24,000 bases of DNA from Gemmataceae bacterium (GTDB taxonomy: Bacteria > Planctomycetota > Planctomycetia > Gemmatales > Gemmataceae), in the NCBI GenBank assembly GCA_046350115.1, contig JAXMAZ010000004.1, positions 285,054 through 309,053 on the forward strand, in the 5' to 3' direction. The first letter of the stretch is position 1, and each line of letters begins with the position of its first letter. The notes under the pieces were generated by a model. It worked only from the letters and a program-made list of their open reading frames with translations, had not been told where the DNA came from and searched no databases. This document shows positions 3,552-23,458 of the stretch, one piece after another. A program made the position numbers and the translations under genes.

Positions 3552-3582
3552 AAGCGGAATTTGACGGGATGAAGCTTAGCGG

Positions 3583-4252
3583 TCAATGCCTCCGGCGGAC
3601 TTGGGCTCCTCGGTGGCAGCCCTTCGAGATCACCCACCCCTGCCCCGCCGCCGGGGCGGTGGCGGTCGTCGGCCACAGGTCGCCCCGCATCGCGTACCCG
3701 CCGTTCTCGTAGCTCTCCCAGTAGCCGGGGCGATCGGCTTCCATGAACTCGACCCCCGCGCCCGCTCTTCCAGGCGTACAGCCGCGGCACCACCAGCCGT
3801 ACCGGGTAGCCGTGGTCCGGGGTCAGCGGCTCGCCGTTGTGCGTCAGCGCGAACAGCGCGTCGTCGGCGAAGAAGTCGTCGAGCGGCAGGTTGGTGCTGA
3901 ACCCGTACTCCGAATGCACCATCACGAACTTCGCCGCCGGGCTGACGGTGACGTGCTGGAGCAGCTCCCGGGTCGGCACCCCTTCCCACAGGTTGTCCAG
4001 CTTCGACCAGCGGGTGACGCAGTGCATGTCGGCCAGCACTTTCACCCGCGGCAGCGCCTGAAACTGCTCCCAGGTGAACCGGACCACCTTCTCCACCAGC
4101 GGCACCGGGAAGACGGCGAAGTCCCACCGGGCCGGGTCGAACGGCGGCACCTCGCCGGCGTGCAGCACCGGCCACTTGTGCGTCTGCGCCTGGCCCGGCG
4201 GCAGCCGGTGCGGCCGGCGGGTGTCCGGGCTGAGAACGACCTCGTCTGCCAT
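3583..4252 (-). pseudogene. sulfite oxidase-like molybdopterin-dependent oxidoreductase (YuiH/MsrP-type catalytic domain), apparent frameshift near 3753-3766
   Basis: The N-terminal 162 aa (MADEVVLSPDTRRPHRLPPGQ...MHCVTRWSKLDNLWEGV...GYPVRLVVPRLYAWKS) match the family. The conserved C-terminus VEFMEADRPGYWESY..GYAMRGDLW is in a different frame and ends at TGA 3585-3583. The segment where the family (from memory) has AKW-V/I-RG is shortened. The 350-aa ORF in the track stays open only because of GC richness. Confidence 0.7.
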
Positions 4253-4267
4253 GACGCGCTCCGAAAC

Positions 4268-4373
4268 GGCCCGCTGAGGACGCAGACTTCGCCGCAGATG
4301 AAAACCAGATACGAATTTGAATTGGTTTCCGATCCGGTTTCATCTGCGGCGAAGTCTGCGTCCTCAGCGGGCC
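4268..4373. repeat. perfect 36-bp inverted repeat with a 34-nt AT-richer spacer, filling the intergenic gap between the flavin reductase and Moco oxidoreductase genes
   Basis: GGCCCGCTGAGGACGCAGACTTCGCCGCAGATGAAA (4268-4303) is the exact reverse complement of 4338-4373. The spacer ACCAGATACGAATTTGAATTGGTTTCCGATCCGG is much lower in GC. Confidence 0.9.
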
Positions 4374-9865: not shown

Positions 9866-10398
9866 GCCGCACCCGCTACCGCATCGGCGACACACTGGGC
9901 CCGTACTTCCTGACCTGCACCGTGGTCGGCTGGTTGCCGGTGTTCACCCGCCCGGAGTGCGTCCAGTTCGTCCTGGACTCCTGGCGGTTCCTGCAAGACA
10001 ACGGCCGCCTGGTCCTGTTCGGGTACGTCGTGATGGAGAACCACCTGCACTTCGTCGCCCGCGGGGACCGGCTGGGGGAGGCGGTCGGCGACTTCAAGTC
10101 GTTCACCGCCCGCAAGGTCATCGACCACCTGCGGGACCGCGGCGAGCAGCATCTGCTCGCCCAACTGGCCTGGGCCAAGGCCGCCCACAAGGGAGACCGG
10201 CCGTACCAGCTGTGGCAGGAGGGGAGCCACCCGAAGGAGATCGGGTGCGACGAGATGATGGTGCAGAAGCTGGAGTACACGCACAACAACCCGGTCCGAC
10301 GGGGGTACGTGGACGACCCACTCCACTGGCGGTACTCGAGCGCCCGGAACTATCACGGGCTGCCGGGGCTACTGGACGTGGCCACCGACTGGCGGTAG
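9862..10398 (+). CDS. REP-associated tyrosine transposase (RAYT; IS200/IS605-like HUH Y1 transposase family)
   Basis: HUH motif in VVMENHLHFVA and a catalytic Tyr region, LEYTHNNPVRRGYV. The 178-aa size and flanking REP hairpins are typical of RAYTs. Confidence 0.9.
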   Translation: MSRTRYRIGDTLGPYFLTCTVVGWLPVFTRPECVQFVLDSWRFLQDNGRLVLFGYVVMENHLHFVARGDRLGEAVGDFKSFTARKVIDHLRDRGEQHLLAQLAWAKAAHKGDRPYQLWQEGSHPKEIGCDEMMVQKLEYTHNNPVRRGYVDDPLHWRYSSARNYHGLPGLLDVATDWR

Positions 10399-10410
10399 CC
10401 TCTGCCCCGT

Positions 10411-10464
10411 CCCTCGTTCCCACGCTCTGCGTGGGAACGCACGGGGGCCACGCTCTGCGTGGCG
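10411..10464 (+). repeat. REP copy B (same orientation as A; second hairpin carries a compensatory base-pair change)
   Basis: The first 37 nt are identical to copy A. The second hairpin is GCCACGC-TCT-GCGTGGC instead of GCGACGC-TCC-GCGTCGC. Confidence 0.85.
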
Positions 10465-10502
10465 TCTTTGCGGGTCGGCCGGAGCGTCCCCGGGCGGGCC
10501 GT

Positions 10503-10556
10503 CCGCGACGCGGAGCGTCGCCCCCGTGCGTTCCCACGCAGAGCGTGGGAACGAGG
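10503..10556 (-). repeat. REP copy C (inverted relative to A and B)
   Basis: CCGCGACGCGGAGCGTCGCCCCCGTGCGTTCCCACGCAGAGCGTGGGAACGAGG is the reverse complement of copy A. Together with B and the 38-nt spacer it can form a long REPIN-type hairpin. Confidence 0.85.
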
Positions 10557-10595
10557 TTGCGATACACGCGGCTAAACTTCACGAGACGCCACCCG

Positions 10596-11306
10596 ATGCC
10601 CGCCATCGTCGAAGTGCTCGACCTGTACAAGGACTACTACATGGGGGACGTGACGGTCAACGTCCTCAAGGGGCTGAACCTGGCGTTCGAGGAGGGCGAC
10701 TTCGTCGCCCTCATGGGGCCGTCCGGGTCCGGCAAGTCCACCCTCATGAACATCCTCGGCTGCCTCGACCGGCCGACCGGCGGCCGGTACGTCCTCCGCG
10801 ACCAGGACGTGTCGCAGATGTCCGACGACGAACTCTCGGAGGTGCGGTCCACGTACCTCGGGTTCATCTTCCAGGCGTACAACCTGCTCCCGCAATACAC
10901 GGTCGTCGAGAACATCGAGATCCCCCTGCTCTACCAGGGCGTCCGGCTGGACGAGAACACCAAGGCCCGGTGTTGCGCCCTGGCCGAGATGGTCGGCCTC
11001 GGCGACCGGCTCGACCACCGGCCGCTCCAACTGTCCGGCGGCCAGCAGCAGCGGGTGGCCATCGCCCGCAGCCTGGTCAACGACCCCCAACTGATCCTGG
11101 CCGACGAGCCGACCGGGAACCTGGACTCCCGGACCAGCGACGAGATCATGCAGATGCTCCGGGAGCTGAACAAGGCCGGCAAGACGATCATCATGGTGAC
11201 GCACGAGAACGACATCGCCGCCTGGGCGCGGCGGGTGGTCCGGCTGCGGGATGGGATGGTCGAGTCGGACGTGCGGAACGACACCCGGACGTTGGTCGGG
11301 GTGTAG
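10596..11306 (+). CDS. ABC transporter ATP-binding protein (MacB/LolD-type)
   Basis: Walker A GPSGSGKST, Q-loop, signature LSGGQQQRVAIARS, Walker B LILADEPTGNLD and H-loop MVTHE. The 506-aa ORF in the track is an upstream read-through across the RAYT/REP region. The real start is ATG 10596. Confidence 0.95.
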   Translation: MPAIVEVLDLYKDYYMGDVTVNVLKGLNLAFEEGDFVALMGPSGSGKSTLMNILGCLDRPTGGRYVLRDQDVSQMSDDELSEVRSTYLGFIFQAYNLLPQYTVVENIEIPLLYQGVRLDENTKARCCALAEMVGLGDRLDHRPLQLSGGQQQRVAIARSLVNDPQLILADEPTGNLDSRTSDEIMQMLRELNKAGKTIIMVTHENDIAAWARRVVRLRDGMVESDVRNDTRTLVGV

Positions 11307-11313
11307 CAGCAGG

Positions 11314-11394
11314 GGCGAGGGGAGAGGGCAAGGGGCAAGCCAACCCTCTCTCCGGCCCGGTTCTGGACTTGCCCCTTGCCCCTCTCCCCTCGCC
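11314..11394. repeat. 26/27-bp GC-rich hairpin occupying the ATPase-permease intergenic spacer
   Basis: GGCGAGGGGAGAGGGCAAGGGGCAAG (11314-11339) pairs with CTTGCCCCTTGCCCCTCTCCCCTCGCC (11368-11394) with a single-nt bulge. The loop is 28 nt. Confidence 0.8.
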
Positions 11395-11404
11395 GCTTCT
11401 TCCG

Positions 11405-12781
11405 ATGCCGATCAACATCTTCGACATCCCGCCCGCCCCGACCCGGCACGCCGGCAGCGGGGCGCTGACCCTGACCAAGCTCGGCCGCGGGGTCGCCCTG
11501 GCCGTCCGCAGCCTGTGGCTGCACAAGCTGCGGGCCGCCCTGTCCGTGCTCGGCATCGTCATCGGGACGAGCGCGGTCATCGCCCTCATGGCGTTCGGCA
11601 AGGGGTCCATGCAGGACGCCCTGAACGACATCAAGCGGCAGGGGGCGACCAACATCATCGTCCGCAGCGTCAAGCCGACGGACGACTCGTCCACCGGCAA
11701 CCGGTCGTTCGTCGCCACCTACGGGCTGACCACCCGCGACCTGGAGCGGTTCGCCACGTTCAACGACTCGCTCGTCCGGATCGTCCCGATGCGGGTGTTC
11801 CCGAGCGAGGTCCGGTACCTGGAGCGGATGGACTCGAAGGCCCGGCTGGTGGCCACCACCCCGGAGTACCAGGTGGTCAACCAGTTGCAGTTGGCGGCCG
11901 GCCGGTTCCTGACCGACGACGACGAGCGGACGATGGCCAACCACTGCGTCCTCGGGGCCGGGCTGGCCGACCGGCTGTTCCCGTTCGAGGACCCGATGGG
12001 GCACACCGTCCAGTGCCGCGGCTTCCGGCTCCTGGTGGTCGGGGTGTGCGCCGACCGGATGCCGACCGGAGGGAGCGGCGGGTCACAGGCGGCCGAGGAC
12101 TTCAACCACGACATCTACGTCCCGTTCAGCACCGCCCGCGCCCGGGTCGGGGAGGTGGTGATGATGCGGCAGTCCGGCTCCCGGGCGGCGGAGAAGGTGC
12201 AGGTGTCCCAGGTGGTGCTGACGGTGGACGCCGACTTCGACACGTCCGAGGGGCGGGCCAGGGTGAAGGCGCTGGGCGACTCGGTCAAGGAGATGCTCAA
12301 GCAGGACCACTTCAAGGACGACTGGGCGGTGACCGTCCCGCTCGACCGGCTGGAGGAGGCGGAGCGGGCGCAGGAGCGGTTCACCAGCCTGCTGGTGCTG
12401 ATCGCGTCCATCTCGCTGGTGGTCGGCGGGATCGGGATCATGAACATCATGCTGGCCACGGTGACGGAGCGGACCCGGGAGATCGGCATCCGCCGGGCGC
12501 TCGGGGCCAAGCGGAAGGACATCATCGGCCAATTCCTGGTGGAGGCGGTGGTGCAGACGACCGTCGGCGGGCTGGCCGGGGTGCTAATCGGGCTGGGGAT
12601 CGTGTTCGGGGCGCCGCTCCTGGCCCGCACCTTCTTCGACACCAACCTGCCGGCGCTGGTGAGTTACTGGTCGATCCTGCTGTCGGTCGGGGTGTCGATC
12701 CTGGTCGGGGTGCTGTTCGGCCTGTACCCGGCGTGGCGGGCCGCCCTGCTCGACCCGATCGAGGCGCTGCGGCACACGTAA
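11405..12781 (+). CDS. ABC transporter permease, MacB/FtsX family with periplasmic MacB_PCD domain
   Basis: TM1 (LRAALSVLGIVIGTSAVIALMAF), a large periplasmic domain, then the FtsX core (LIASISLVVGGIGIMNIMLATVTERTREIGIRRALGAKRKDI...LYPAWRAALLDPIEALR). The start is ATG 11405; the 751-aa track ORF is a read-through. Confidence 0.9.
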   Translation: MPINIFDIPPAPTRHAGSGALTLTKLGRGVALAVRSLWLHKLRAALSVLGIVIGTSAVIALMAFGKGSMQDALNDIKRQGATNIIVRSVKPTDDSSTGNRSFVATYGLTTRDLERFATFNDSLVRIVPMRVFPSEVRYLERMDSKARLVATTPEYQVVNQLQLAAGRFLTDDDERTMANHCVLGAGLADRLFPFEDPMGHTVQCRGFRLLVVGVCADRMPTGGSGGSQAAEDFNHDIYVPFSTARARVGEVVMMRQSGSRAAEKVQVSQVVLTVDADFDTSEGRARVKALGDSVKEMLKQDHFKDDWAVTVPLDRLEEAERAQERFTSLLVLIASISLVVGGIGIMNIMLATVTERTREIGIRRALGAKRKDIIGQFLVEAVVQTTVGGLAGVLIGLGIVFGAPLLARTFFDTNLPALVSYWSILLSVGVSILVGVLFGLYPAWRAALLDPIEALRHT

Positions 12782-13254: not shown

Positions 13255-13865
13255 CTGCTGGGAGGGTAGAAGCCCTCGCCTTTCAGGCGACGGCTTCAGC
13301 AGTTATAAGCGTTGGCCATGGACTCCCACCGCCACGGCCCGCACTCGGTCTTCTCGATCCACCTGCACCTGGTGTGGGTGACCAAGTACCGGAAGTCGGC
13401 GCTGGCCGGGGCGGTGGGGGTCCGTGTCCGTGACCTGATCCGCGAGATCTGCGGGACGCACGACGTGCACATCATCCGCGGGCACGTGGCCGCCGACCAC
13501 GTCCACCTGCTCGTGTCGATCCCGCCGCAGGTGGCGGTCAGCCGGCCGGTGCAGCGGCTCGAGGGGAAGACGGCGTTCAAGCTGCTGCAGGAGTTCGCCC
13601 ACCTGCGGAAGCAGTTCTGGGGCCGGCACCTGTGGGCGCGCGGGTACCTCGCGTGCAGCAGCGGGAACGTGACGGACGAGGTGGTGGCCCAGTACATCGA
13701 GAACCAGGGTCGGGGCGGGGACGCAGAGTTCCGGGTGGAGGGCGGCCCGGAGTAGCTTCAGCCGGCCTGCGGCCGGAGGTCTTCAGCCGACCTCCGGTCG
13801 GAACAGGACTTGAGTCCGTTACACCGAAGCCACCGCCTTCAGGCGGTGGAGCGTTCACTTTCGGC
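13255..13865 (+). mobile_element. IS200/IS605-family element carrying tnpA only (ends approximate, +/- 20 nt)
   Basis: Related subterminal hairpins flank tnpA. The left one is GAAGCC-cTCGCC-TTTCA-GGCGAcGG (13269-13293) and the right one is GAAGCC-aCCGCC-TTCA-GGCGGtGG (13826-13849). The size of about 0.6 kb is typical of IS200-type elements. No tnpB is present. Confidence 0.7.
13318..13755 (+). CDS. tnpA: IS200/IS605 family transposase TnpA (HUH Y1)
   Basis: HSVFSIHLHLVWVTKYRK, the HUH motif in AADHVHLLVSIPP, LEGKTAFKL, and the catalytic Tyr region FWGRHLWARGYLACSSGNVTDEVVAQYIENQ. I prefer ATG 13318 over the TTG at 13312 used by the ORF track. Confidence 0.93.
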   Translation: MDSHRHGPHSVFSIHLHLVWVTKYRKSALAGAVGVRVRDLIREICGTHDVHIIRGHVAADHVHLLVSIPPQVAVSRPVQRLEGKTAFKLLQEFAHLRKQFWGRHLWARGYLACSSGNVTDEVVAQYIENQGRGGDAEFRVEGGPE

Positions 13866-14118: not shown

Positions 14119-14727
14119 TCAGTTGCCGCCGAGCATCGCGAGGACGTCCTGGACCTTTGCCCGGTCGCCGTGGGTCGTGCTCACCTTGGCGAACGTCACC
14201 TTCCGCTTGCCGTCGATGACGAACGTCGAGGGGTACGCGGTCTCGTTCTTCGCGTCCCACCGCAACCCGTATGCAGTCGTGAAGGCGTAGTCCGGATCGA
14301 ACAGGATGGTGAAGTGGCCCGGGTAGTCCTTCCCCTTCACGAACTCGGTCGCCTTGTCCTTCAGCCCGTCGGCCGGGCCCGGGTAGACGAACAGGACCTG
14401 TGCCCCGGCCTTCTTGAACTCGTCCGCCTTGCCGCGGAACTCGGCGAACTGCTTCGTGCAGATCGGGCACTGGTAACCGGGGTAGCCCCGCAGCACGACC
14501 AGCACCACCGGACCGGCCTCGGTCGCCTTCGACAACTTCACCTTCTCGCCGCCGATGGACGCCAACTCGAAGTCCTTCGCCTCGTCGCCCACCTTCGGGC
14601 CGGCCTCGGCGGCCTTCGCGGGCTGGCCGGCGTACAGGACCGAGGACGCGGAACACACGACGAGTGCGGCGGCCAGCATCGCACCCGCGGGGGTCCGGGC
14701 GGCCCTGATCGGGGATCGGTTCGACAT
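14119..14727 (-). CDS. secreted peroxiredoxin / AhpC-TSA (redoxin) family thiol peroxidase-like protein
   Basis: Start at internal ATG 14727. Signal peptide MSNRSPIRAARTPAGAMLAAALVVCSASSVLYA, then a thioredoxin-fold pattern: DFELASIGGEKVKLS...VVLVVLRGYPGYQCPICTKQ...STFVIDGKRKV. Confidence 0.85.
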   Translation of the reverse strand: MSNRSPIRAARTPAGAMLAAALVVCSASSVLYAGQPAKAAEAGPKVGDEAKDFELASIGGEKVKLSKATEAGPVVLVVLRGYPGYQCPICTKQFAEFRGKADEFKKAGAQVLFVYPGPADGLKDKATEFVKGKDYPGHFTILFDPDYAFTTAYGLRWDAKNETAYPSTFVIDGKRKVTFAKVSTTHGDRAKVQDVLAMLGGN

Positions 14728-14807
14728 GTTCGGGTTCCACTTGTGTCTGGCCGCGCGAGGCACCACGCCGACGCGGACGGGGTTCGATGCCGGCCGATCC
14801 CGGTCCG

Positions 14808-15485
14808 TTACGCCGGAACCGCGACCCGAGCGGAAATCGCTTCCAGGGCGTCGATCAGCACCGACGGCAACTCGGCCCGGTTGGCCCGCCGGTAGCCGCT
14901 CGGCCCGGTGCCGACGAACGCCCAGTCGTGCATCCCGTCCAGGGTGTTCGCGCACATCAGGTCGGCCCCCGAGTGGACCCGCGACCGCTCCGCGACGTCG
15001 AGCAGTTCTTCGTTCGACACCCCGACTTCCAGCTTGAACTTCACGAGGGTGCCGGCGAAGCCCCACTCGGCGCGGACCTTGTCGATCAGCTTCGGCGCGG
15101 GGACGAGCCGCAGCCACAGTTCGGAGTGCGAACTCTTCACCTTCCCGGAGGCCGCGTTCTCGAAATGGCCCTCACGCCCGGCGAACACGCCGGCGACGTG
15201 GTAATCGCTCACGGCCGCCGCGTGGACCACCGCGTCGTACCGGCCGGAGGTGATCTCCTCTGCCATTAACGCGTCGAGGTCGTCGAACGTCCGGTACGGC
15301 TGGACCCGCACGCCGGCGTCTGTGTCGAGCACCTCCGGGTGCGACGTGAGCAGCGTGACGGTGTGGCCGCGGGCGGCCGCCTCCGCGGCGACCCGGGCAC
15401 CCGTCCGCCCGGAGAAGATGTTGGTGATGCACCGGACGCGGTCGATCGGCGTCTGGGTGTTCCCGGCGGTCACGAGGACGTTCAT
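14808..15485 (-). CDS. CoaB-like protein (phosphopantothenate-cysteine ligase / DFP C-terminal domain family), stand-alone
   Basis: MNVLVTAGNTQTPIDRVRCITNIFSGRTG, AAAVSDY, GKVKSS, LVKFKLE and DLMCANTL align, from memory, with the E. coli Dfp CoaB domain motifs ([46 protein letters not shown]). AAGGGAG SD before the ATG. Confidence 0.8.
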   Translation of the reverse strand: MNVLVTAGNTQTPIDRVRCITNIFSGRTGARVAAEAAARGHTVTLLTSHPEVLDTDAGVRVQPYRTFDDLDALMAEEITSGRYDAVVHAAAVSDYHVAGVFAGREGHFENAASGKVKSSHSELWLRLVPAPKLIDKVRAEWGFAGTLVKFKLEVGVSNEELLDVAERSRVHSGADLMCANTLDGMHDWAFVGTGPSGYRRANRAELPSVLIDALEAISARVAVPA

Positions 15486-15494
15486 GGCTCCCTT

Positions 15495-17093
15495 TCAGTC
15501 CGCAAGAGGGTGGACCGCGCGGTCGCGGTAGTGGGCACGCAACAGCGTGAGCAGTTCGGCCACCGTGGCCGGCCGGTGCCCCCGCCGGCGGTTCGCGTCC
15601 CCGATCCGGAACAGGAGCGCCCACTGGCGGAAGAGGGTGTGGTACGCACGCCAGAGGGGCCACGAGGGGTCGTACAGGTTCGTCGATTCCGCGGTCACGC
15701 CGTTCAGTTCGACGATCGCGAACCCGTGACCGGCCCGGAACTCGTCCGCGCTCGTGTACCGCACGTCGAACCGGCCGGCGAAGAACCCGTCGAACCGCCG
15801 CGCGACGGCGTCGAACGCGGCCTCCAGTGCCGGGGTGACGAGGTGGCCGCCGTCCCGGAACAGCGTCCCCTGGCAGTGGTTCCCCGCGGCGGCGAGCACG
15901 AGCCGCTCGCCCGCGGCAAGCACCCGGTCGGCGGTGGCTGCGTGGCGGGCCAGGAACGTCGCCGCCTGCATCCGGTAGCGGGGGTGCGCCCAGACCAACT
16001 CTTCGAGCGTGGACCGGCCGTCCCCCGTGACGACCGGGAACACCTTGTCGGTCACCGAGAAGACGTGCCCACGCTCATCGCCGGGCAGCCGGTAGTAGAA
16101 GACGCCGGCCTCGAACGGCCCGGGGTGGAACGGCTGCGCGATCACCGGCCCGGGATTCGCCCGCAGGTACTTCTCCACCTCCACCGGGTCGTGCGCCTTC
16201 CGCACGCCCGCCCCGCGCTCGCCGGCGTCCGGCTTCAGGACGAGCGGGAACGCCCACCCGCGACCGGCGACCGCGTCGAGCACCCGCGGCAGCCGGTCGC
16301 CGACTTCTCCGGGCGGGACCAGGACCGTCGGCACCACCCACTGCGGTGGGAGGTTCGAAAGGATGTCGGCCTTCGACTCGCCGGCCACGCCGCCGGCCGG
16401 GACGATGCCGGGGTTCGCCGCGGTCCAGACGGTGAGGCTCCGGTATCGGGCCGCGAGGTAAAGGACCCACGGGACGAGCGGCAGGTAGAACACCCACGCC
16501 GGCCAGAACTCCCACCGCCACAGCCGCGACACCGCCGCGGCCAGCTTCGCCCGGCCGACGCGGGTGAACAGCGGGGGGGTGACGCGCGCCGCCGCGTACA
16601 CGCCGAGGAACGTGGCGAGTAGTACCCGGGTGGACACCGCGTCGCCCAGTCGGGCGACGGCGAGGACGATGAGCGGGGTCCACGCCAGCGCGGCGACGGC
16701 CGCCCACATCAGGAATCGGGTTCCGCCGCGGGGCGCGACGCCGGCCGCGAGCAGGAGCGGCACCCGCGTGCCCGGCAGGACGCGCGAGACGAACGCCGCG
16801 GCCCCGCCGCGTCGAGCGAGCCAATCCCCCACCTCGGCCAGTCGCGCCGCCGACACCCTGCCGCGGACCCACCGGCTCCCGCCGCGGCCGAGCAGCCAGA
16901 CGCCGGCGTCGCCGAGCACGATCCCCGCGAAGCACGCGGCGACCGCCGGGAGCCAGTCCAGCCGCGCCGCGGCGACCAGGAGCCCGGCCGCGACGCACGT
17001 CAGGTCTTCCGAGACGAGCGCGGCCACGACGATGGCGAGCACCAGCGCCCACGGCCCGGCCGCCGCGCCGGGGTCGAACGGGAGGGGGGTCAT
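15495..17093 (-). CDS. fusion protein: N-terminal DedA/VTT (SNARE-associated) membrane domain plus C-terminal ATP-grasp-like carboxylate-amine ligase domain
   Basis: N-terminal half: hydrophobic segments with VSEDLTCVAAGLLV and FVSRVLPGTRVP, which are DedA-type motifs. C-terminal half: PLVLKPDAGERGAGV...VIAQPF...GRFDVRY...FAIVELNGVTAESTNLYDP, an ATP-grasp-like pattern. The start ATG 17093 overlaps the upstream stop as ATGA. The 780-aa track ORF is a read-through. Confidence 0.75.
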   Translation of the reverse strand: MTPLPFDPGAAAGPWALVLAIVVAALVSEDLTCVAAGLLVAAARLDWLPAVAACFAGIVLGDAGVWLLGRGGSRWVRGRVSAARLAEVGDWLARRGGAAAFVSRVLPGTRVPLLLAAGVAPRGGTRFLMWAAVAALAWTPLIVLAVARLGDAVSTRVLLATFLGVYAAARVTPPLFTRVGRAKLAAAVSRLWRWEFWPAWVFYLPLVPWVLYLAARYRSLTVWTAANPGIVPAGGVAGESKADILSNLPPQWVVPTVLVPPGEVGDRLPRVLDAVAGRGWAFPLVLKPDAGERGAGVRKAHDPVEVEKYLRANPGPVIAQPFHPGPFEAGVFYYRLPGDERGHVFSVTDKVFPVVTGDGRSTLEELVWAHPRYRMQAATFLARHAATADRVLAAGERLVLAAAGNHCQGTLFRDGGHLVTPALEAAFDAVARRFDGFFAGRFDVRYTSADEFRAGHGFAIVELNGVTAESTNLYDPSWPLWRAYHTLFRQWALLFRIGDANRRRGHRPATVAELLTLLRAHYRDRAVHPLAD

Positions 17094-17839
17094 GGCACAC
17101 CGACGGGGGCGAGGGGGAGGTGGACGATCTGGCGCTCGGCCGGCCGGTCCGGGGCGTCCGGGTGGTAGGCGAACGTGGCCGCCGCGGGGCCGAGGTCGAT
17201 GACGGCGTGGCTGACGGTCCGGGCGTCGGCCCGCTCCATGTTCACGCTCAGGTGTGGGTGGTCTGGCCACCGGTGGCGGTGGAACGCGTCCTGGGCCGCC
17301 TCCCACCCGTCGGCCGGGCCGGCGAACAGGCCGTCGAACAATTCCCGTCGGACGCCCTCGACTAGGTGGTCGCCGAGCCCCGACGAGGTGAACAGCAGGG
17401 GAGTTCCCCCGACCAGCCGGCTCATGACCATCGGCTGGCGGCCGTCCCACTGGATGTCCGCGCCGATCCCGCTCCCGACCAGTACCAGCCGGAACGGGGC
17501 GAAGTCCGGGTAGCGGACCGCCCGCTCCAGGACGCCGAGGGCGGCGGCGGGGGTGGCACACTCCAGCAGGGCCGGGATGATCTCGCCGCGGCTGCGGCAC
17601 GGGGGGCGTCCGCGCCGCACGTCCCGGGGGTTGGCGTTCAAGACGGCGAGAGCCAGGCCGGCGTCGTTGACGCCCAGCCAGGTGCCGCCGGAGACCGGGT
17701 CCGTGGGGAGCACGGCCTCGCGGCCCCCGAACCCCCGCCGGGCGGGCGGCAGGCCGGGCGGCCGTGTTCGCTGTTCGTCCCGGTTGAACGCCAACCGGAC
17801 CCGGTCGCCCGGTAACGGGGCGACGGTCAGCGTGCACAT
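17090..17839 (-). CDS. NRDE family protein (TANGO2 homologue)
   Basis: Begins MCTL (Cys2) and contains LAFNRDE, GGTWLGVN and FTSSGLGD, the hallmarks of the NRDE/TANGO2 family. Start at internal ATG 17839; the upstream part of the 579-aa ORF is non-coding-like. Confidence 0.85.
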   Translation of the reverse strand: MCTLTVAPLPGDRVRLAFNRDEQRTRPPGLPPARRGFGGREAVLPTDPVSGGTWLGVNDAGLALAVLNANPRDVRRGRPPCRSRGEIIPALLECATPAAALGVLERAVRYPDFAPFRLVLVGSGIGADIQWDGRQPMVMSRLVGGTPLLFTSSGLGDHLVEGVRRELFDGLFAGPADGWEAAQDAFHRHRWPDHPHLSVNMERADARTVSHAVIDLGPAAATFAYHPDAPDRPAERQIVHLPLAPVGVP

Positions 17840-18402
17840 GCGCGGCTCCGCTGGTGGGCGATGGTGGATGGGGCGTACCCGAAGTCGGCCGGTAACCCGG
17901 TGCCGAGCAGCTTCGCCAGGATGCCGATGATCGCGTTGTGGTGGACCGTGTGACTGACGACGAACGCCAGTTCCCGGTCCGGACTGGTGACGGCCGTGAC
18001 CGGAGGCCGGTCGGGGGCGACCAGGGCCATCAGTTTCACCAGGTGCGGCACCGTGTGCCACGCGAACTCGGTCAACTCCTGCTCCAGACGGAGGATCTCG
18101 GCCATCGCGGCGAGCCGGTCCCGCTCCACGTCGGTCCCGCGGTCGCGGTGGTCGTAGTCCACCACACCGGCCCGCAGGCCGCGGAGTAGCGCCGCGACGT
18201 GGTCGAGGTTGTGGCGGACGTGGCCGCCGACGCTGCTTTCGACCACCCCGACCGGCTTGCGGGCGTACTCCTCGTTCGAGAGCGACTCGACCAGGTCGAA
18301 CAGTTGGTGCAACAGGCCGATGAGCGGGCGGACGGCCGGAGGCTCGGGCCGGAGACAGCAGGGGCGGCCGGAGAGGTCGGGGGCGCGGGCTGGCTGGATC
18401 AT
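17827..18402 (-). CDS. DinB-family (DinB_2-like four-helix bundle, putative metal-binding) protein
   Basis: His triad pattern: GGHVRHNLDH ... (about 100 aa) ... VSHTVHHNAII. Size 191 aa. Overlaps the NRDE start by 13 nt. Confidence 0.7.
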   Translation of the reverse strand: MIQPARAPDLSGRPCCLRPEPPAVRPLIGLLHQLFDLVESLSNEEYARKPVGVVESSVGGHVRHNLDHVAALLRGLRAGVVDYDHRDRGTDVERDRLAAMAEILRLEQELTEFAWHTVPHLVKLMALVAPDRPPVTAVTSPDRELAFVVSHTVHHNAIIGILAKLLGTGLPADFGYAPSTIAHQRSRACAR

Positions 18403-18561
18403 AGGGGTGGATCCGGTCGGGGGCGGGTCGGCTTTGTTCGTTCGATGCGAGCCGGCCCGCCGGGTTACACCCGTCCGTCACACAATCACGCCGGCACAGA
18501 AAACGAGCGGGCCGCCGGCGCTTCCTCCGGCGGCCCGTCGGTGCTGTGGTGGGGCACGGCC

Positions 18562-19059
18562 TCACGCGGCGCGACCCATCCCCAGCCGCTCCCGGAGGCG
18601 GCCGACGAACGGCAGTTGTCGCCACCGGAACGCGAGTACGACGAGCGACCCGGCCGCGACGGCCAGGGCCAGCCCGAACAGCAACCCGCCGTCTCCCTCG
18701 CCGGTGTCCGGGTTCTTCACCTCGATCCCCAGGGACGTGAGGTGCGTCAGGATCGCCCCGCCGATCACGGCCAGGCCCAATGCCGCCCCGGTCGCCGCGC
18801 ACCGCGGGATCAGCAGCAGGACGACGCACGCCAACTCCGCCAGTCCGACCAGCGTCGCCGCAGGGCGGCCGCCGCGGGACTCAAAGATGTACCGCGTCTC
18901 GGGGGCGTAGGTGAACTTGAAGAACAGCGTCTGCGCCAGGATCACCGCCACCACGACCTGCGCCGCCCACGGCACCACCCGCGCCGCCCACGGGCCGCTC
19001 GTTGCAGGCCCGCCCATCCGCCCGGCTGTCGGACCTGTCGTCGGCGACTGTGTCGTCAT
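18562..19059 (-). CDS. DoxX family membrane protein
   Basis: Four hydrophobic segments (VVVAVILAQTLFFKF, LAELACVVLLLIP, LGLAVIGGAILTHL, LLFGLALAVAAGSLVVL), typical of DoxX-like proteins. Start placed at ATG 19059, with GAGGG upstream. Confidence 0.7.
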   Translation of the reverse strand: MTTQSPTTGPTAGRMGGPATSGPWAARVVPWAAQVVVAVILAQTLFFKFTYAPETRYIFESRGGRPAATLVGLAELACVVLLLIPRCAATGAALGLAVIGGAILTHLTSLGIEVKNPDTGEGDGGLLFGLALAVAAGSLVVLAFRWRQLPFVGRLRERLGMGRAA

Positions 19060-19107: not shown

Positions 19108-19129
19108 GTCCGGGTACGATGACCCGGAC
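19108..19129. promoter_or_regulatory. 8-bp inverted repeat GTCCGGGT-N6-ACCCGGAC in the divergent doxX / sigma-54 activator intergenic region
   Basis: Perfect arms with a 6-nt spacer, located between the two divergent starts (19059 and 19191). Confidence 0.25.
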
Positions 19130-19190: not shown

Positions 19191-21113
<1,923 letters not shown>

Positions 21114-21282: not shown

Positions 21283-21326
21283 TTAGTGGTCACTCACAAC
21301 CGAATTTCCCTCACGCCGAGTGACCC

Positions 21327-21926
21327 ATGACCACGACCGTGGCCGGGTGCGGTCCCCGCACGCCCGCATCGAATCCCGACACCGAAGCCGCCCTGGTCGC
21401 CCGCCTGCGGGCGGGCGACGAGGACGCATACGAAACCCTGTTCCGCTCCCACGCCGGGGCGATGCTGGCGGTCGCCCGCCGGTTCCTCGGCGACACCGAC
21501 GCGGCCGCCGACGCTGTCCAGGAGGCGTTCGTGTCGGCGTTCCGGGCGATGCCGTCGTTCGAGGGGACCGCCCGGCTGGGGACGTGGCTGCACCGGATCA
21601 CCGTCAACGCCTGCCTGATGGCCCTCCGCGGCCGGCGGCGGAGCCGGCTCGTCCCCCTCGGCGAACACGCTGCCCCGATCGCCACACAGGACCAGGACCC
21701 GCTGAGCCGAACCGAGACGGCCGCATGGGTTCGAGCCGGCATCGCGCAGTTGCCGGACGCTTACCGGACGGTGATCCGGCTCCGCGACCTGGACGGGTTA
21801 GACACCCACGAGACGGCCCGGCGGTTGGGCACCAGCGTGGAGGTGGTCAAGACCCGCCTGCACCGCGCCCGCCAGGCGCTCCGCTCCCTGCTCGCGCCCC
21901 GGTTGCCGGTGATGTGCGGGGCGTGA
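21327..21926 (+). CDS. RNA polymerase sigma-70 family, ECF subfamily sigma factor
   Basis: Region 2: AYETLFRSHAGAMLAVARRFLGDTDAAADAVQEAFVSAFR...LGTWLHRITVNACL. Region 4: LPDAYRTVIRLRDLDGLDTHETARRLGTSVEVVKTRLHRARQAL. Confidence 0.9.
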   Translation: MTTTVAGCGPRTPASNPDTEAALVARLRAGDEDAYETLFRSHAGAMLAVARRFLGDTDAAADAVQEAFVSAFRAMPSFEGTARLGTWLHRITVNACLMALRGRRRSRLVPLGEHAAPIATQDQDPLSRTETAAWVRAGIAQLPDAYRTVIRLRDLDGLDTHETARRLGTSVEVVKTRLHRARQALRSLLAPRLPVMCGA

Positions 21927-22336: not shown

Positions 22337-22456
22337 GATCGCCGTGTGGTCGATGCCGAGGAACAGCCGGTCTGATTTTTTCTATGCCGGCAAGCCTGAC
22401 TGGCGGTGCGGAAGGCGAGTAGGGATGATGGGTTGCACTTCCACGGAGGGGACCCG

Positions 22457-23458
22457 ATGGCCCGCCGCACCGCCCGCCCCGCCCCGACCGCCGAACAGAT
22501 CCTCGTGCCAGTGACCACGACCTGCGTGGCCTGCGGCCAGCACCTGCACCTCGACTACGCGAACTTCCGGACGATCACCTCCCTGACCGGGGTCACCCGG
22601 TACACGCTCCGGATCGGCCGGTGCCGGCACGCCCCGTGCGACCTGTTCACCGTCCCGTTCCGGCCCGAGGCCGAGGGCCGCCTGGCGCTGCCGCACCACG
22701 AGTTCGGCCTGGACGTGGTCGCGTACGCCGGGAACCGCCGGTACACCGCCCACCGGACGGCCCCCGAGATCCACGCCGAGTTGACCGCACGCGGGCTGGC
22801 CCTGTCCGTCCGCACCGTGACGAACTTGCTCCACCGGTTCGACGGGTTGCTGGCCCTGGCCGCGACCGACCCGACCCGGCTGCGGCCGGCGCTCGAGAAG
22901 CAGGGCCGGGTGCTGCTGGCCATCGACGGGCTGCAACCGGACGTCGGGCACGAGGTGCTGTGGGTCATCCGCGACTGCCTGAGCGGCCGGGTCGTGCTGG
23001 CCAAGGCCCTCCTGTCGGGGACCGCGGCCGACCTGTCCGGGCTGCTGGCCCGCGCCGCGGACGCGGTCGGGGTGCCGGTCGCCGGGGTGGTGTCCGACGG
23101 CCAGCACTCGATCCGCAACGCCGTCGCACGGGCTCTGCCGGGGGTGCCGCACCAGCTGTGCCAGTTCCACTACCTGCGGGAGGCGGCCCTGCCCGTCTAC
23201 GAGGCCGACCGGCACGCCAAGAAGGAACTCAAGAAGCACGTCCGCGGGGTCCGCGAGATCGAGCGCCAGGTCGAGGATCGCGCCGACCCGCAGGCCGAGG
23301 TGGTCCGCGGGTACTGCGCCGCGGTCCGCGGGGCGTTGACCGACGACGGCCGGCCGCCGCTGGACTCGGCCGGGCTGCGGCTGCGGGACCGGTTGGCCGC
23401 GGTGGCCGACAGCCTGGCCCGGGTCGGGGCCGTAAAAGGGGGGCGCCGCGGGAGCTGA
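22457..23458 (+). CDS. DDE transposase, N-terminal ORF (zinc-finger-like CxxC...CxxxxC, catalytic D, D, E candidates)
   Basis: MARRTARP...TTCVACGQHLHL...GRCRHAPCD, then LLAIDGLQPDVGHEVLWVIRD, VVSDGQHSIRNAV and QLCQFHYLREAA. Ends at TGA 23456-23458, shortly after an A4G6 run. Confidence 0.8.
   Translation: MARRTARPAPTAEQILVPVTTTCVACGQHLHLDYANFRTITSLTGVTRYTLRIGRCRHAPCDLFTVPFRPEAEGRLALPHHEFGLDVVAYAGNRRYTAHRTAPEIHAELTARGLALSVRTVTNLLHRFDGLLALAATDPTRLRPALEKQGRVLLAIDGLQPDVGHEVLWVIRDCLSGRVVLAKALLSGTAADLSGLLARAADAVGVPVAGVVSDGQHSIRNAVARALPGVPHQLCQFHYLREAALPVYEADRHAKKELKKHVRGVREIERQVEDRADPQAEVVRGYCAAVRGALTDDGRPPLDSAGLRLRDRLAAVADSLARVGAVKGGRRGS

What the first reader, a model, noticed from the sequence alone, without database searches (positions are those of the whole stretch)
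14119..18402. Translationally coupled DinB-like / NRDE (TANGO2) / DedA::ATP-grasp / CoaB-like operon (+ secreted peroxiredoxin): candidate uncharacterised thiol- or pantetheine-type small-molecule pathway
**Seen in sequence.**
- Four minus-strand genes are packed head to tail.
- DinB-like overlaps the NRDE start by 13 nt.
- The NRDE stop and the next start share ATGA (17090-17093).
- The DedA::ATP-grasp gene stops 9 nt before the CoaB-like ATG, with AAGGGAG as SD.
- A signal-peptide peroxiredoxin follows after 80 nt.
- The NRDE protein starts MCT and has AFNRDE.
- The CoaB-like protein keeps the nucleotide/substrate motifs of the CoaB domain.
- The 532-aa protein fuses a DedA/VTT membrane domain to an ATP-grasp-like ligase.

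**Established knowledge.**
- CoaB ligates cysteine to a carboxylate through an acyl-nucleotide intermediate.
- ATP-grasp enzymes make amide bonds (GshB, Ddl, RimK).
- DinB/YfiT-fold proteins include low-molecular-weight-thiol S-transferases and the EgtB N-domain.
- DedA proteins act on membrane lipids or lipid carriers.
- NRDE/TANGO2 has no settled biochemical function. As far as I recall (not checked), eukaryotic TANGO2 deficiency has been linked to CoA/pantothenate and acyl-CoA metabolism.

**Inference.** The operon may build, attach or recycle a cysteine- or pantetheine-like, amide-linked, possibly membrane-associated small molecule. It would also give bacterial genomic context for NRDE function.
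Basis: partly seen in the sequence, partly recalled or inferred. Interest (0 to 1): 0.7.

Follow-up and report, generated by a model that had tools for sequence, protein, structure and literature searches.

The report
Conserved membrane ligase–TANGO2 operon, function unknown
A tightly packed operon in this Gemmata-like planctomycete pairs a bacterial relative of the human disease protein TANGO2 with a membrane-anchored ATP-dependent amide-bond ligase; the pairing is conserved in hundreds of species and sometimes fused into one protein, which gives TANGO2's disputed function a testable bacterial setting, while the CoaB-like gene that suggested a pantetheine pathway is only a local add-on.

Summary
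All five minus-strand genes, the 13-nt and ATGA overlaps, the 9-nt and 80-nt gaps and the domain calls were reproduced.

The conserved unit is DinB-like > NRDE/TANGO2 > VTT(DedA)::ATP-grasp. It has the same order and strand in 58 of 70 related loci with enough upstream DNA. Relatives were found in 422 species-level genomes, mostly Planctomycetota.

Three links are strong:
- Some proteins fuse NRDE, an alpha/beta-hydrolase, VTT and ATP-grasp into one chain that starts MCT.
- In other loci VTT and ATP-grasp are separate genes.
- NRDE models as a Cys N-terminal-nucleophile hydrolase like human TANGO2.

The CoaB-like gene is not core. It is adjacent in only 4 of 61 loci plus L085, all Gemmataceae. 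In Gemmata sp. SH-PL17 it is 89% identical to a second copy elsewhere.

The "peroxiredoxin" is a secreted CxxC redoxin of the SelL-related kind.

More frequent partners are DoxX-like, ferric-reductase::Rieske, an unknown Cys/His membrane protein, a YHS redoxin and a convergent OlsF-like aminolipid synthase.

Best reading, confidence about 0.4: a membrane lipid or lipid-linked amide ligation, translocation and turnover machine set in an envelope redox cluster. The thiol/pantetheine reading survives only as a rival.

The parts
17827..18402 (-). DinB-like four-helix metalloprotein (191 aa), first gene of the coupled unit
   Evidence: Pfam DinB scores 25.6 bits against a cut-off of 23; DinB_2 is just below its cut-off. 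Across 68 homologues H61, H64, D67, H68, H151, H154 and H155 are at least 95% conserved. It lies upstream of NRDE on the same strand in 63 of 70 loci. A profile search found no solved relative by sequence.
17090..17839 (-). NRDE/TANGO2-family protein (249 aa), predicted Cys N-terminal-nucleophile hydrolase or acyltransferase
   Evidence: Pfam TANGO2 scores 29.1 bits against 22.6. Residues C2, N19, R20, D21 and E22 are conserved. The start codon sits directly before the Cys codon in 65 of 66 loci. The AF2 model has pLDDT 87.8. Foldseek top hits are human TANGO2 8sv7 (E 8e-11), CV2077, isopenicillin-N acyltransferase and bile-salt hydrolases.
15495..17093 (-). VTT(DedA)::ATP-grasp fusion protein (532 aa), the signature gene of the system
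   Evidence: There are 2616 homologues at E <= 1e-5. Relatives were found in 422 species-level genomes. The AF2 model has pLDDT 80.6. Alternative architectures exist: ABH::VTT::AG, NRDE::ABH::VTT::AG, AG::ABH, and split VTT plus AG.
16656..16991 (-). VTT/DedA membrane domain (residues 35-146)
   Evidence: Pfam VTT_dom scores 37.6 bits against 33.9. A weak NCBIfam UptA hit has E 1e-7. Hydrophobic segments and helices appear in the model.
15498..16538 (-). Aromatic interfacial segment (RLWRWEFWPAW..Y.P) plus ATP-grasp ligase domain (residues 186-532)
   Evidence: Foldseek matches cyanophycin synthetase, GshF and Ddl at probability 1.0. Invariant residues include K287, Q320, E328, D443, E462 and N464. 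No Pfam model matches at E <= 10. There are 1221 50%-identity clusters at E <= 1e-30. The aromatic segment forms the N-terminus of the stand-alone ATP-grasp proteins.
14808..15485 (-). CoaB-like (DFP-domain) protein, 225 aa; lineage-specific accessory gene
   Evidence: Pfam DFP has E 3.6e-31. It falls below the NCBIfam CoaB equivalog cut-offs (99.8 against 265; 94.2 against 217). The best PDB matches are 2gk4 and E. coli CoaB, with the R206 and N210 equivalents kept. It is adjacent to the cluster only in a subset of Gemmataceae. The paralogues are 88.8% identical in SH-PL17.
14119..14727 (-). Secreted thioredoxin-fold CxxC redoxin (AhpC/TSA fold, SelL-related), 202 aa
   Evidence: Pfam AhpC-TSA has E 1.2e-24 and Redoxin E 2.3e-21. 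The top NCBIfam match is SelL-related redox protein. The sequence shows YPGYQCPIC and an N-terminal hydrophobic signal. A homologue lies downstream on the same strand in 13 of 61 loci.
18562..19059 (-). DoxX_2-like small membrane protein (start uncertain; the ORF extends to 19158)
   Evidence: The window copy has no Pfam hit. Homologues in L001, L003 and L004 carry weak DoxX_2 hits. An HMM built here finds it upstream of DinB in 33 loci.
18508..18537 (-). Terminator-like GC hairpin (11 G-C pairs, then CTCGTTTTCT) between the DoxX-like and DinB-like genes
   Evidence: It suggests that DinB-NRDE-VTT::AG-CoaB(-redoxin) is a transcription unit separate from the DoxX-like gene.
19191..21113 (+). 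Divergent sigma54-dependent activator (GAF/PAS, AAA+ with GAFTGA, HTH_8)
   Evidence: The translation shows EKGAFTGA. Orthologues in L001 and L085 are annotated GAF/PAS/Sigma54_activat/HTH_8 in the same divergent position. It is present in 19 loci, mainly Gemmatales.
21324..21923 (+). ECF sigma factor next to the activator, syntenic in Gemmata
   Evidence: Pfam Sigma70_r2, r4_2 and ECF. It holds the same position in L001 and L085.

Best explanation
**The core.** It is a three-gene, translationally coupled module: a DinB-like metalloprotein, an NRDE/TANGO2 Cys-Ntn enzyme, and a membrane protein that joins a DedA/VTT domain to an ATP-grasp ligase. This module is shown by conservation, overlaps and fusions.

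**Proposed mechanism (inferred).**
- The ATP-grasp domain sits at the cytoplasmic membrane surface, held there by its invariant aromatic segment and the VTT domain.
- It activates a carboxylate as an acyl-phosphate and forms an amide bond on a membrane lipid or lipid-linked amphiphile. An amino-lipid head group is one candidate substrate.
- The VTT/DedA domain moves the product across the membrane.
- In many lineages a membrane-anchored alpha/beta-hydrolase domain, predicted to face the periplasm, trims or transacylates the product.
- NRDE uses its free N-terminal cysteine to cleave or transfer an acyl-amide or acyl-thioester in the same pathway.
- The DinB-like protein supplies a metal-dependent step of unknown chemistry.

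**Setting.** The module is embedded in an envelope redox and stress cluster. That cluster holds a secreted CxxC redoxin, a DoxX-like protein and, in relatives, ferric-reductase::Rieske and a Cys/His membrane protein. In Gemmataceae it lies next to a sigma54 activator and an ECF sigma factor.

**The CoaB-like gene.** It is a recent, lineage-restricted passenger. It most likely adds phosphopantothenoylcysteine-synthetase-type capacity under the same regulation.
For: **Conservation**
- 422 species-level genomes encode a relative.
- 58 of 70 loci have DinB and NRDE upstream on the same strand. The 13-nt overlap recurs in 31 loci.

**Fusions and splits**
- P0365 and P0374 are NRDE::ABH::VTT::ATP-grasp. 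NRDE is N-terminal and P0365 starts MCT. P0365 was seen on two contigs.
- ABH::VTT::AG occurs in 28 loci.
- AG::ABH without VTT sits in an operon with overlapping FRD::Rieske, an unknown protein, DinB and NRDE.
- VTT and AG occur as separate overlapping genes.

**Enzyme competence**
- ATP-grasp fold and invariant K/E/D/N residues.
- NRDE fold matches TANGO2, isopenicillin-N acyltransferase and bile-salt hydrolase, with conserved C2 and NRDE motif.
- The ABH domain has GFSMG, D and H motifs.

**Pointers to a membrane or lipid substrate**
- The aromatic WEFWPxW segment heads every ATP-grasp variant, including stand-alone ones.
- An OlsF-like amino-lipid synthase (NF052615, E 2e-120) is present in 26 of 84 loci and directly convergent in 15 of 61.
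- A TMEM164-family gene lies in L087.

**Literature**
- The human TANGO2 crystal structure suggests a Cys-Ntn hydrolase with an amphipathic cavity suited to fatty-acyl substrates (PMC13044924).
- TANGO2 binds C16/C18 acyl-CoA through the NRDE motif (PMC11867700).
- In planctomycetes an ATP-dependent ligase plus an alpha/beta-hydrolase make ornithine lipid (PMC12493201).
- An ATP-dependent taurine transfer to the ornithine-lipid carboxyl has no known gene (PMC12971839).
Against: - No substrate is identified and nothing here is biochemical.
- DedA/VTT proteins have also been proposed as transporters of non-lipid solutes. The domain could simply be an anchor or exporter.
- OlsF-like adjacency is convergent, not co-transcribed. 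It is absent from Gemmataceae, including this window.
- The closest structural relatives of the ATP-grasp domain act on soluble peptides or amino acids (cyanophycin synthetase, GshF, Ddl). The matches are generic (TM 0.25-0.37 over the domain).
- The periplasmic location of the ABH domain rests only on one hydrophobic segment and the positive-inside rule.
- Redox partners are as frequent as lipid ones, and the lipid model does not explain them.
- The DinB assignment is marginal and has no solved relative by sequence.
Confidence: 0.4

Rival explanations
1. One reading: the operon makes, attaches or recycles a soluble cysteine- or pantetheine-type low-molecular-weight thiol. The ATP-grasp and CoaB-like enzymes would act as amide ligases, DinB as a thiol S-transferase, NRDE as a conjugate amidase, VTT as an exporter, and the secreted redoxin as a user of the thiol.
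For: - The ATP-grasp model matches the GshF ligase domain among its top hits.
- DinB-fold proteins include thiol S-transferases (established knowledge).
- NRDE as an Ntn amidase parallels EgtC and gamma-glutamyl transpeptidase (inference).
- Neighbours include secreted CxxC redoxins, DoxX-like proteins and glyoxalase/VOC proteins with weak FosA/FosB/glyoxalase-I matches.
- The CoaB-like gene keeps the R206 and N210 equivalents.
- TANGO2 is linked to acyl-CoA/CoA (PMC11867700).
Against: - The CoaB-like gene is absent from most clusters (4 of 61 adjacent, plus L085). It is a near-identical duplicate of a stand-alone gene.
- No Glu-Cys ligase, BshC/MshC-type or EgtB/EgtD-type enzyme is in the cluster.
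- The reading does not explain the invariant membrane anchoring of the ligase, the alpha/beta-hydrolase fusions or the OlsF-like neighbour.
Confidence: 0.2
2. Modification of a polyprenyl-phosphate-linked envelope precursor. The ATP-grasp domain would add an amino acid to lipid II or another undecaprenyl-linked intermediate, the DedA domain would flip it, and NRDE or ABH would trim it.
For: - The VTT domain's best NCBIfam match is the undecaprenyl-phosphate transporter UptA (E 1e-7).
- COG0586 DedA proteins are proposed UndP flippases (PMC10127716).
- Ddl-type ligases are among the structural matches.
Against: - The UptA score is 32 bits against a cut-off of 250, so it is only generic DedA similarity.
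- No mur, pbp or glycosyltransferase genes are in any of the neighbourhoods examined.
- The recurrent neighbour is an amino-lipid synthase, not a cell-wall gene.
Confidence: 0.1
3. An envelope redox, haem or metal-handling system. NRDE would act as a haem-trafficking protein, as reported for Shewanella HtpA, serving the di-haem ferric-reductase::Rieske protein. The ligase would make or modify a metal- or redox-active ligand.
For: - Bacterial TANGO2 homologues are reported as haem-trafficking proteins (PMC10470608).
- FRD::Rieske, a conserved C-x12-HK-x-C-x3-C protein and a YHS-domain redoxin are co-operonic with DinB and NRDE in many loci, with overlapping starts and stops in L089.
Against: - FRD::Rieske and its partner are absent from this window and from several Gemmata clusters.
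- The human TANGO2 structure paper reports non-specific haem binding (PMC13044924).
- The strict N-terminal position of NRDE in the fusions and the conserved Cys2/NRDE motif argue for catalysis.
Confidence: 0.1

Closest known systems
Human TANGO2 (PDB 8sv7, 9bwa) and Cys-Ntn hydrolases/acyltransferases (isopenicillin-N acyltransferase, bile-salt hydrolase, penicillin V acylase, acid ceramidase, NAAA)
   Same: The window NRDE protein has the Pfam TANGO2 domain, Cys2 directly after the start codon, the NRDE motif and a predicted alpha-beta-beta-alpha fold. Its best PDB match is TANGO2 itself.
   Different: - It is about 16-18% identical to human TANGO2. A plain sequence search gives E 0.3.
- The equivalents of Asn157 and Lys166 were not mapped.
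- Here it is encoded in, or fused to, a DinB/ATP-grasp/VTT module. No such context is described for any characterised member, and no paper holding both 'TANGO2' and 'ATP-grasp' was found.
MprF with its periplasmic hydrolase partners (aminoacyl-phosphatidylglycerol synthase-flippase; from my own knowledge, not checked here)
   Same: The architectural logic matches: a cytoplasmic head-group-forming enzyme fused to a lipid-translocating membrane domain, with a hydrolase on the other side of the membrane.
   Different: There is no homology. MprF uses aminoacyl-tRNA and forms an ester. This system has an ATP-grasp (acyl-phosphate, amide) and a DedA/VTT domain. The substrate is unknown.
OlsH/OlsI ornithine-lipid pathway of planctomycetes (PMC12493201), and the gene-less ATP-dependent taurine transfer to ornithine lipid (PMC12971839)
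   Same: [quoted passage not shown] They occur in the same phylum. OlsF-like genes are adjacent in many loci.
   Different: OlsH is a GH3 adenylating enzyme, not an ATP-grasp. There is no NRDE, DinB or VTT in that pathway. No lipid product has been linked to the present genes.
CoaB, phosphopantothenate-cysteine ligase (E. coli 1u7u; S. pneumoniae-type 2gk4)
   Same: It has the DFP domain, with the glycine-rich N-terminal motif, the R206 and N210 equivalents and AAVSDY kept.
   Different: It scores far below the NCBIfam equivalog cut-offs. It is stand-alone with no CoaC domain. It is duplicated in some Gemmata. It is not a conserved member of the cluster.
Cyanophycin synthetase G domain, GshF ligase domain and D-Ala-D-Ala ligase
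   Same: ATP-grasp fold with Foldseek probability 1.0, and conserved ATP/Mg residues.
   Different: Identity is 10-23%. No Pfam or NCBIfam family model matches it. It has a unique N-terminal aromatic membrane-interface segment and VTT/ABH/NRDE fusions.

Membership tests
TANGO2/NRDE (PF05742), Cys-Ntn hydrolase fold | Profile match above the curated threshold | tested here: met
   29.1 bits against 22.6, residues 1-120 only.
TANGO2/NRDE (PF05742), Cys-Ntn hydrolase fold | Cysteine directly after the initiator Met, plus the N-R-D-E motif | tested here: met
   MCT start and N19-R20-D21-E22. C2, R20, D21 and E22 are at least 95% conserved in 65 homologues, and N19 is conserved at 90% or more. The start codon precedes Cys in 65 of 66 loci.
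TANGO2/NRDE (PF05742), Cys-Ntn hydrolase fold | Four-layer alpha-beta-beta-alpha fold | tested here: met
   The AF2 model has pLDDT 87.8. Foldseek matches 8sv7 at E 8e-11 with TM 0.67, then IAT, BSH and PVA. This is a prediction, not a solved structure.
TANGO2/NRDE (PF05742), Cys-Ntn hydrolase fold | Oxyanion-hole Asn and basic residue (human Asn157 and Lys166), and amidase activity | not tested
   Residue-level superposition was not available. Activity needs biochemistry.
ATP-grasp carboxylate-amine ligases | ATP-grasp fold with conserved Lys and acidic/Asn Mg-binding residues | tested here: met
   Foldseek probability 1.0 to CphA, GshF and Ddl. K287, Q320, E328, D443, E462 and N464 are invariant in 20 sequences. 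Assigning these residues to roles is inference.
ATP-grasp carboxylate-amine ligases | Membership of a described ATP-grasp family model | tested here: not met
   No Pfam hit at E <= 10. Only sub-threshold cyanophycin-synthetase NCBIfam hits, 17-19 bits against 850 or more.
DedA/VTT (PF09335) | Profile match above threshold | tested here: met
   37.6 bits against 33.9. Subfamily (COG0586, COG0398 or COG1238) not resolved.
CoaB / phosphopantothenoylcysteine synthetase | DFP domain and catalytic Arg/Asn (E. coli R206 and N210) | tested here: met
   DFP E 3.6e-31. The alignment to 1u7u shows ...DRVRCITN... aligned with ...DPVRYIS(N210D).... The K289 equivalent is ambiguous.
CoaB / phosphopantothenoylcysteine synthetase | Equivalog-level score (same function) | tested here: not met
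   PRK06732 99.8 against 265; TIGR02114 94.2 against 217; TIGR00521 81.1 against 219.7.
CoaB / phosphopantothenoylcysteine synthetase | Whether it is the only CoaB in the genome, or a canonical coaBC exists elsewhere | not testable with these tools
In Gemmata sp. SH-PL17 there are two DFP paralogues.
DinB superfamily | Profile match and conserved His-based metal site | tested here: inconclusive
   DinB 25.6 against 23 (met); DinB_2 24.0 against 24.8 (missed). Six conserved His and one Asp. No solved relative by profile search. No structure model was made.
Peroxiredoxin (AhpC/TSA) | Peroxidatic motif P-x3-T/S-x2-C | tested here: not met
   The sequence is P-G-Y-Q-C-P-I-C, so Cys replaces T/S and gives CxxC. 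The best NCBIfam match is SelL-related redox protein. The fold family is met.
Low-molecular-weight-thiol biosynthesis (GSH, BSH, MSH, EGT types) | Presence of a diagnostic enzyme (Glu-Cys ligase, BshC/MshC, or EgtB sulfoxide synthase with FGE domain) | tested here: not met
   None found among the cluster genes in the window or in ten annotated related loci.

The most novel reading that the evidence does not exclude
The DinB / NRDE / (ABH)::VTT::ATP-grasp module is a previously unrecognised pathway that builds and turns over an amide-linked head group on a membrane lipid and exposes it on the periplasmic leaflet. The added group could be an amine or thiol-bearing amino acid placed on an amino-lipid carboxylate, the kind of ATP-dependent reaction known for taurine-ornithine lipid whose gene is still unknown. 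There the co-encoded CxxC redoxin and ferric-reductase::Rieske chain would keep it redox-active. NRDE would be the pathway's acyl-amide hydrolase or transferase. That would give the first enzymatic reaction and substrate class for the TANGO2 family.
Probability: 0.15. Interest if true: 0.85.

Novelty: new variant of a known kind. Interest (0 to 1): 0.62.

Why it matters
- **TANGO2's function is contested.** TANGO2 deficiency is a severe human metabolic disease. The protein has been called a haem chaperone, an acyl-CoA binder and a Cys-Ntn hydrolase (PMC10470608, PMC11867700, PMC13044924).
- **This gives a bacterial test bed.** Bacterial NRDE proteins here are translationally coupled to, and sometimes fused with, an ATP-dependent amide ligase, a DedA/VTT membrane domain and an alpha/beta-hydrolase. 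This is "guilt by association" of unusual strength. It can be tested in tractable planctomycetes such as Gemmata obscuriglobus or by heterologous expression.
- **It defines an unmodelled enzyme family.** The ATP-grasp family is large, with 1221 50%-identity clusters at E <= 1e-30, and no Pfam model matches it.
- **It may touch two further gaps.** It may bear on unassigned amino-lipid modifications. It also gives DedA-family proteins a new enzymatic fusion partner.

Tried and rejected
- **ATP-grasp half against the PDB by sequence.** Only noise was found.
- **ATP-grasp half against Pfam at E <= 10.** Nothing was found.
- **DinB and the Cys/His protein.** Profile searches against the PDB gave no meaningful hits, and a Pfam scan of the Cys/His protein gave none either.
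- **Literature.** Searches for TANGO2 + ATP-grasp, DedA + ATP-grasp, and NRDE/DinB/VTT product names found no paper describing the cluster.
- **Sigma54 promoter.** A -24/-12 element was sought between the activator and the DoxX-like gene. Several Gemmata loci share TGGCATCGTACCAGCA with correct GG-N10-GC spacing. The window's homologous stretch has indels and does not fit. I make no claim of a sigma54 promoter here.
- **tRNA call.** ARAGORN's tRNA-Arg(gcg) at 18387-18461 overlaps the DinB start. I rejected it because Rfam finds no tRNA at the gathering threshold.
- **Incidental CoaB-like adjacency.** I rejected this for Gemmataceae, where the gaps are 9-26 nt in five loci. I accepted that the gene is not part of the conserved system.
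- **Canonical coaBC.** I could not test whether one exists in this genome.

Full report
**1. The observation**

The window is about 71% G+C. Its proteins are closest to Gemmataceae (Planctomycetota). The VTT::ATP-grasp protein is 83-84% identical to metagenome proteins and 69-70% identical to those of Gemmata obscuriglobus and Frigoriglobus tundricola.

- DinB-like, 17827-18402.
- NRDE, 17090-17839, starting MCT and carrying AFNRDE.
- A 532-aa protein, 15495-17093.
- CoaB-like, 14808-15485.
- A signal-peptide AhpC/TSA-fold protein, 14119-14727.
- A 13-nt overlap, an ATGA overlap, a 9-nt gap holding AAGGGAG, and an 80-nt gap.

Pfam supports DinB (marginally), TANGO2, VTT_dom, DFP and AhpC-TSA. 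No Pfam model covers the C-terminal half of the 532-aa protein, even at E <= 10. An AlphaFold2 model has mean pLDDT 80.6. It matches cyanophycin synthetases, the bifunctional glutathione synthetase GshF and D-Ala-D-Ala ligases at Foldseek probability 1.0. Lys, Gln, Glu, Asp and Asn residues are invariant. It is therefore an ATP-grasp ligase of a family that has no model.

No terminator-like site lies within the five genes on their strand. A strong one (11 G-C pairs plus a T-run, 18537-18508) sits between the upstream DoxX-like gene and DinB. DinB through CoaB-like, and probably the redoxin, is therefore one likely transcript.

**2. What is conserved**

A scan of one genome per species with an alignment of the fusion protein found relatives in 422 genomes. 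The 80 loci kept are mostly Planctomycetota: Gemmatales, Planctomycetales, Pirellulales, Phycisphaerae and Tepidisphaerales. A few contigs are labelled Vicinamibacterales, Leptospirales or delta-proteobacterium. These are MAGs, so the labels should be treated with care.

I built HMMs from the window's proteins and mapped them on all loci:
- Of 70 loci with at least 2.5 kb upstream, 58 have both DinB and NRDE directly upstream on the same strand. 65 have at least one.
- The 13-nt DinB/NRDE overlap recurs in 31 loci. Overlaps of 19-31 nt recur in 22 more.
- A start codon directly precedes the conserved Cys in 65 of 66 NRDE genes.

The CoaB-like gene behaves differently:
- It is adjacent in only 4 of 61 loci with enough downstream sequence, plus L085, all Gemmataceae.
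- It is absent from the G. obscuriglobus cluster, where the redoxin follows the fusion gene directly.
- Gemmata sp. SH-PL17 has one copy in the cluster and one elsewhere standing alone. They are 88.8% identical to each other and about 72-73% identical to the window's copy.
- This looks like a recent duplicate recruited into the operon, not a specialised core enzyme.

**3. Fusions and splits**

An exhaustive HMMER search with the ATP-grasp half found 1221 50%-identity clusters at E <= 1e-30. The best 150 sort into these architectures:
- 63 are VTT::AG.
- 33 are alpha/beta-hydrolase::VTT::AG.
- 30 are ABH plus AG, mostly 820-900 aa, in which my VTT model detects no VTT; P0392 (689 aa, AG::ABH) is in this class.
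- 22 are AG alone. Some of these are fragments.
- 2 are NRDE::ABH::VTT::AG.

P0365 (1121 aa) starts MCTVTLVPR...CNRDE. It then has one hydrophobic segment preceded by a basic stretch, then the hydrolase with a GxSxG motif, then VTT and ATP-grasp. It occurs on two contigs, next to a DinB_2 gene, a convergent OlsF-like gene and a TMEM164-family gene.

In L089 an AG::ABH protein without VTT closes an operon of YHS-redoxin, ferric-reductase::Rieske, an unknown protein, DinB and NRDE. The last five, from ferric-reductase::Rieske to AG::ABH, have overlapping starts and stops. In L090 VTT (144 aa) and AG (345 aa) are separate overlapping genes after DinB and NRDE.

NRDE is always N-terminal when fused. 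That is what an N-terminal-nucleophile enzyme requires. The aromatic segment W-E-F-W-P-x-W..Y.P heads every ATP-grasp variant, including stand-alone ones. The ligase is therefore intrinsically membrane-associated.

**4. NRDE**

The AF2 model (pLDDT 87.8) finds human TANGO2 (8sv7, 9bwa) first. After that come CV2077, isopenicillin-N acyltransferase, bile-salt hydrolases and penicillin V acylase. C2, R20, D21 and E22 are at least 95% conserved across 65 homologues and N19 at 90% or more. So are an SRG motif and an SSGLGD motif.

The 2026 structure paper identifies Cys2, Asn25, Arg26, Asp27, Asn157 and Lys166 as a putative Cys-Ntn active site. It describes an amphipathic cavity suited to fatty-acyl substrates and reports non-specific haem binding (PMC13044924). 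A 2025 paper shows NRDE-motif-dependent binding of C16/C18 acyl-CoA (PMC11867700). A 2023 paper proposes haem trafficking for a Shewanella homologue (PMC10470608).

**5. Other partners**

- **The 'peroxiredoxin'.** It has C-P-I-C where the peroxidatic T/S-x-x-C should be. Its best match is SelL-related redox protein. Relatives carry a C-terminal YHS domain.
- **Recurrent upstream genes.** These are a DoxX_2-like membrane protein (33 loci), a ferric-reductase-type di-haem membrane domain fused to a Rieske domain (36 ORFs), and a membrane-anchored protein with invariant C-x12-HK-x-C-x3-C (41 ORFs). That last protein has no Pfam or PDB match.
- **Downstream genes.** A 640-aa protein matches the bifunctional ornithine-lipid synthase OlsF (E 2.4e-120, but 403 bits against a cut-off of 620). 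It also matches GlsB and GlsA. It is present in 26 loci and directly convergent in 15 of 61. A two-domain VOC/glyoxalase protein often follows it.
- **In Gemmataceae.** The cluster is flanked by a divergent sigma54 activator with GAFTGA and by an ECF sigma factor.

**6. Mechanism**

*Shown:*
- A conserved, translationally coupled DinB-NRDE-(ABH)VTT-ATP-grasp module.
- Physical fusions between its parts.
- Catalytic motifs intact in the ligase, NRDE and the hydrolase.

*Inferred:*
- The ligase forms an amide through an acyl-phosphate at the cytoplasmic membrane surface on a lipid or lipid-linked substrate.
- VTT translocates the product.
- The hydrolase acts on the outer side. This topology rests on a single transmembrane segment after a cytoplasmic NRDE and on the positive-inside rule.
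- NRDE hydrolyses or transfers an acyl-amide or acyl-thioester.

*Precedents by logic, not homology:*
- MprF-type synthase-flippases.
- The planctomycete OlsH (ATP-dependent ligase) and OlsI (alpha/beta-hydrolase) ornithine-lipid pathway (PMC12493201).
- An ATP-dependent taurine transfer to the ornithine-lipid carboxyl whose gene is unknown (PMC12971839).

I put this at about 0.4. The soluble thiol/pantetheine reading is about 0.2. It is helped by the redox neighbours, the similarity to GshF and the CoaB-like gene. It is hurt by the non-conservation of CoaB-like, by the lack of any diagnostic thiol-pathway enzyme and by the membrane features. A polyprenyl-linked precursor reading and a haem or metal redox reading get about 0.1 each. 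The redox module is explained by none of the models in full.

**7. Novelty**

No paper in the searchable library joins TANGO2/NRDE with ATP-grasp, DedA or DinB. All the domains belong to known superfamilies. The module, the ATP-grasp family and the fusions appear undescribed. I rate it a new variant of a known kind, namely a membrane-embedded head-group or amide-modifying system. There is a minority chance that it is something further removed. Its main value is that it makes TANGO2-family biochemistry directly testable in bacteria.

Noticed in passing
window 18387-18461 (+): ARAGORN calls a tRNA-Arg (anticodon gcg) that overlaps the DinB start codon on the opposite strand. Rfam finds no tRNA at the gathering threshold anywhere in the window, so this is most likely a false positive in G+C-rich sequence.
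   Followed up: yes
window 19108-19129 (minus strand): A perfect 8-bp inverted repeat, GTCCGGGT-CATCGT-ACCCGGAC, lies between the sigma54 activator and the likely start of the DoxX-like gene. The homologous position in several Gemmata loci reads TGGCATCGTACCAGCA, which has sigma54-like GG-N10-GC spacing. The window's version does not fit that spacing.
   Followed up: partly
window 13312-13755 (+) and 22400-23455 (+): An intact IS200/IS605 transposase gene lies directly downstream of the redoxin gene. A Mutator-family transposase remnant lies beyond the ECF sigma and glyoxalase genes. The cluster region is therefore bracketed by mobile-element genes.
   Followed up: no
related loci, e.g. L003 4349-5122, L089 4652-5623: A membrane-anchored protein family of about 257 aa has invariant C-x12-H-K-x-C-x3-C and an N-terminal FYVGYL motif. 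It has no Pfam or PDB match. It is always paired with a ferric-reductase::Rieske fusion and is co-operonic with DinB and NRDE. It is not present in this window.
   Followed up: partly
related loci, e.g. L003 9626-11548 (-), L087 5551-7377 (-): OlsF-like bifunctional amino-lipid synthase genes occur in Planctomycetota (NF052615, E 2e-120, below the equivalog cut-off). They lie convergent to the ATP-grasp gene. The ornithine-lipid literature read here lists OlsF for Proteobacteria and the CFB group, not planctomycetes (PMC12493201).
   Followed up: partly
L085 6001-6699 and L086 6001-6702 (Gemmata sp. SH-PL17): Two stand-alone DFP/CoaB-like paralogues in one genome are 88.8% identical. One is in the cluster and one lies next to fatty-acid synthesis and desaturase genes. 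The 10.1-Mb genome that carries P0160 and P0180 shows a similar pair at 89.1%.
   Followed up: partly
window 5623-12781 (+) and 3203-4339 (-): A tripartite efflux-type set (outer-membrane efflux protein, HlyD-like adaptor, and an ABC/permease ORF) and a molybdopterin oxidoreductase lie on the low-coordinate side of the cluster, beyond the redoxin gene and the IS200 transposase. Neither is syntenic with the cluster in other genomes.
   Followed up: no
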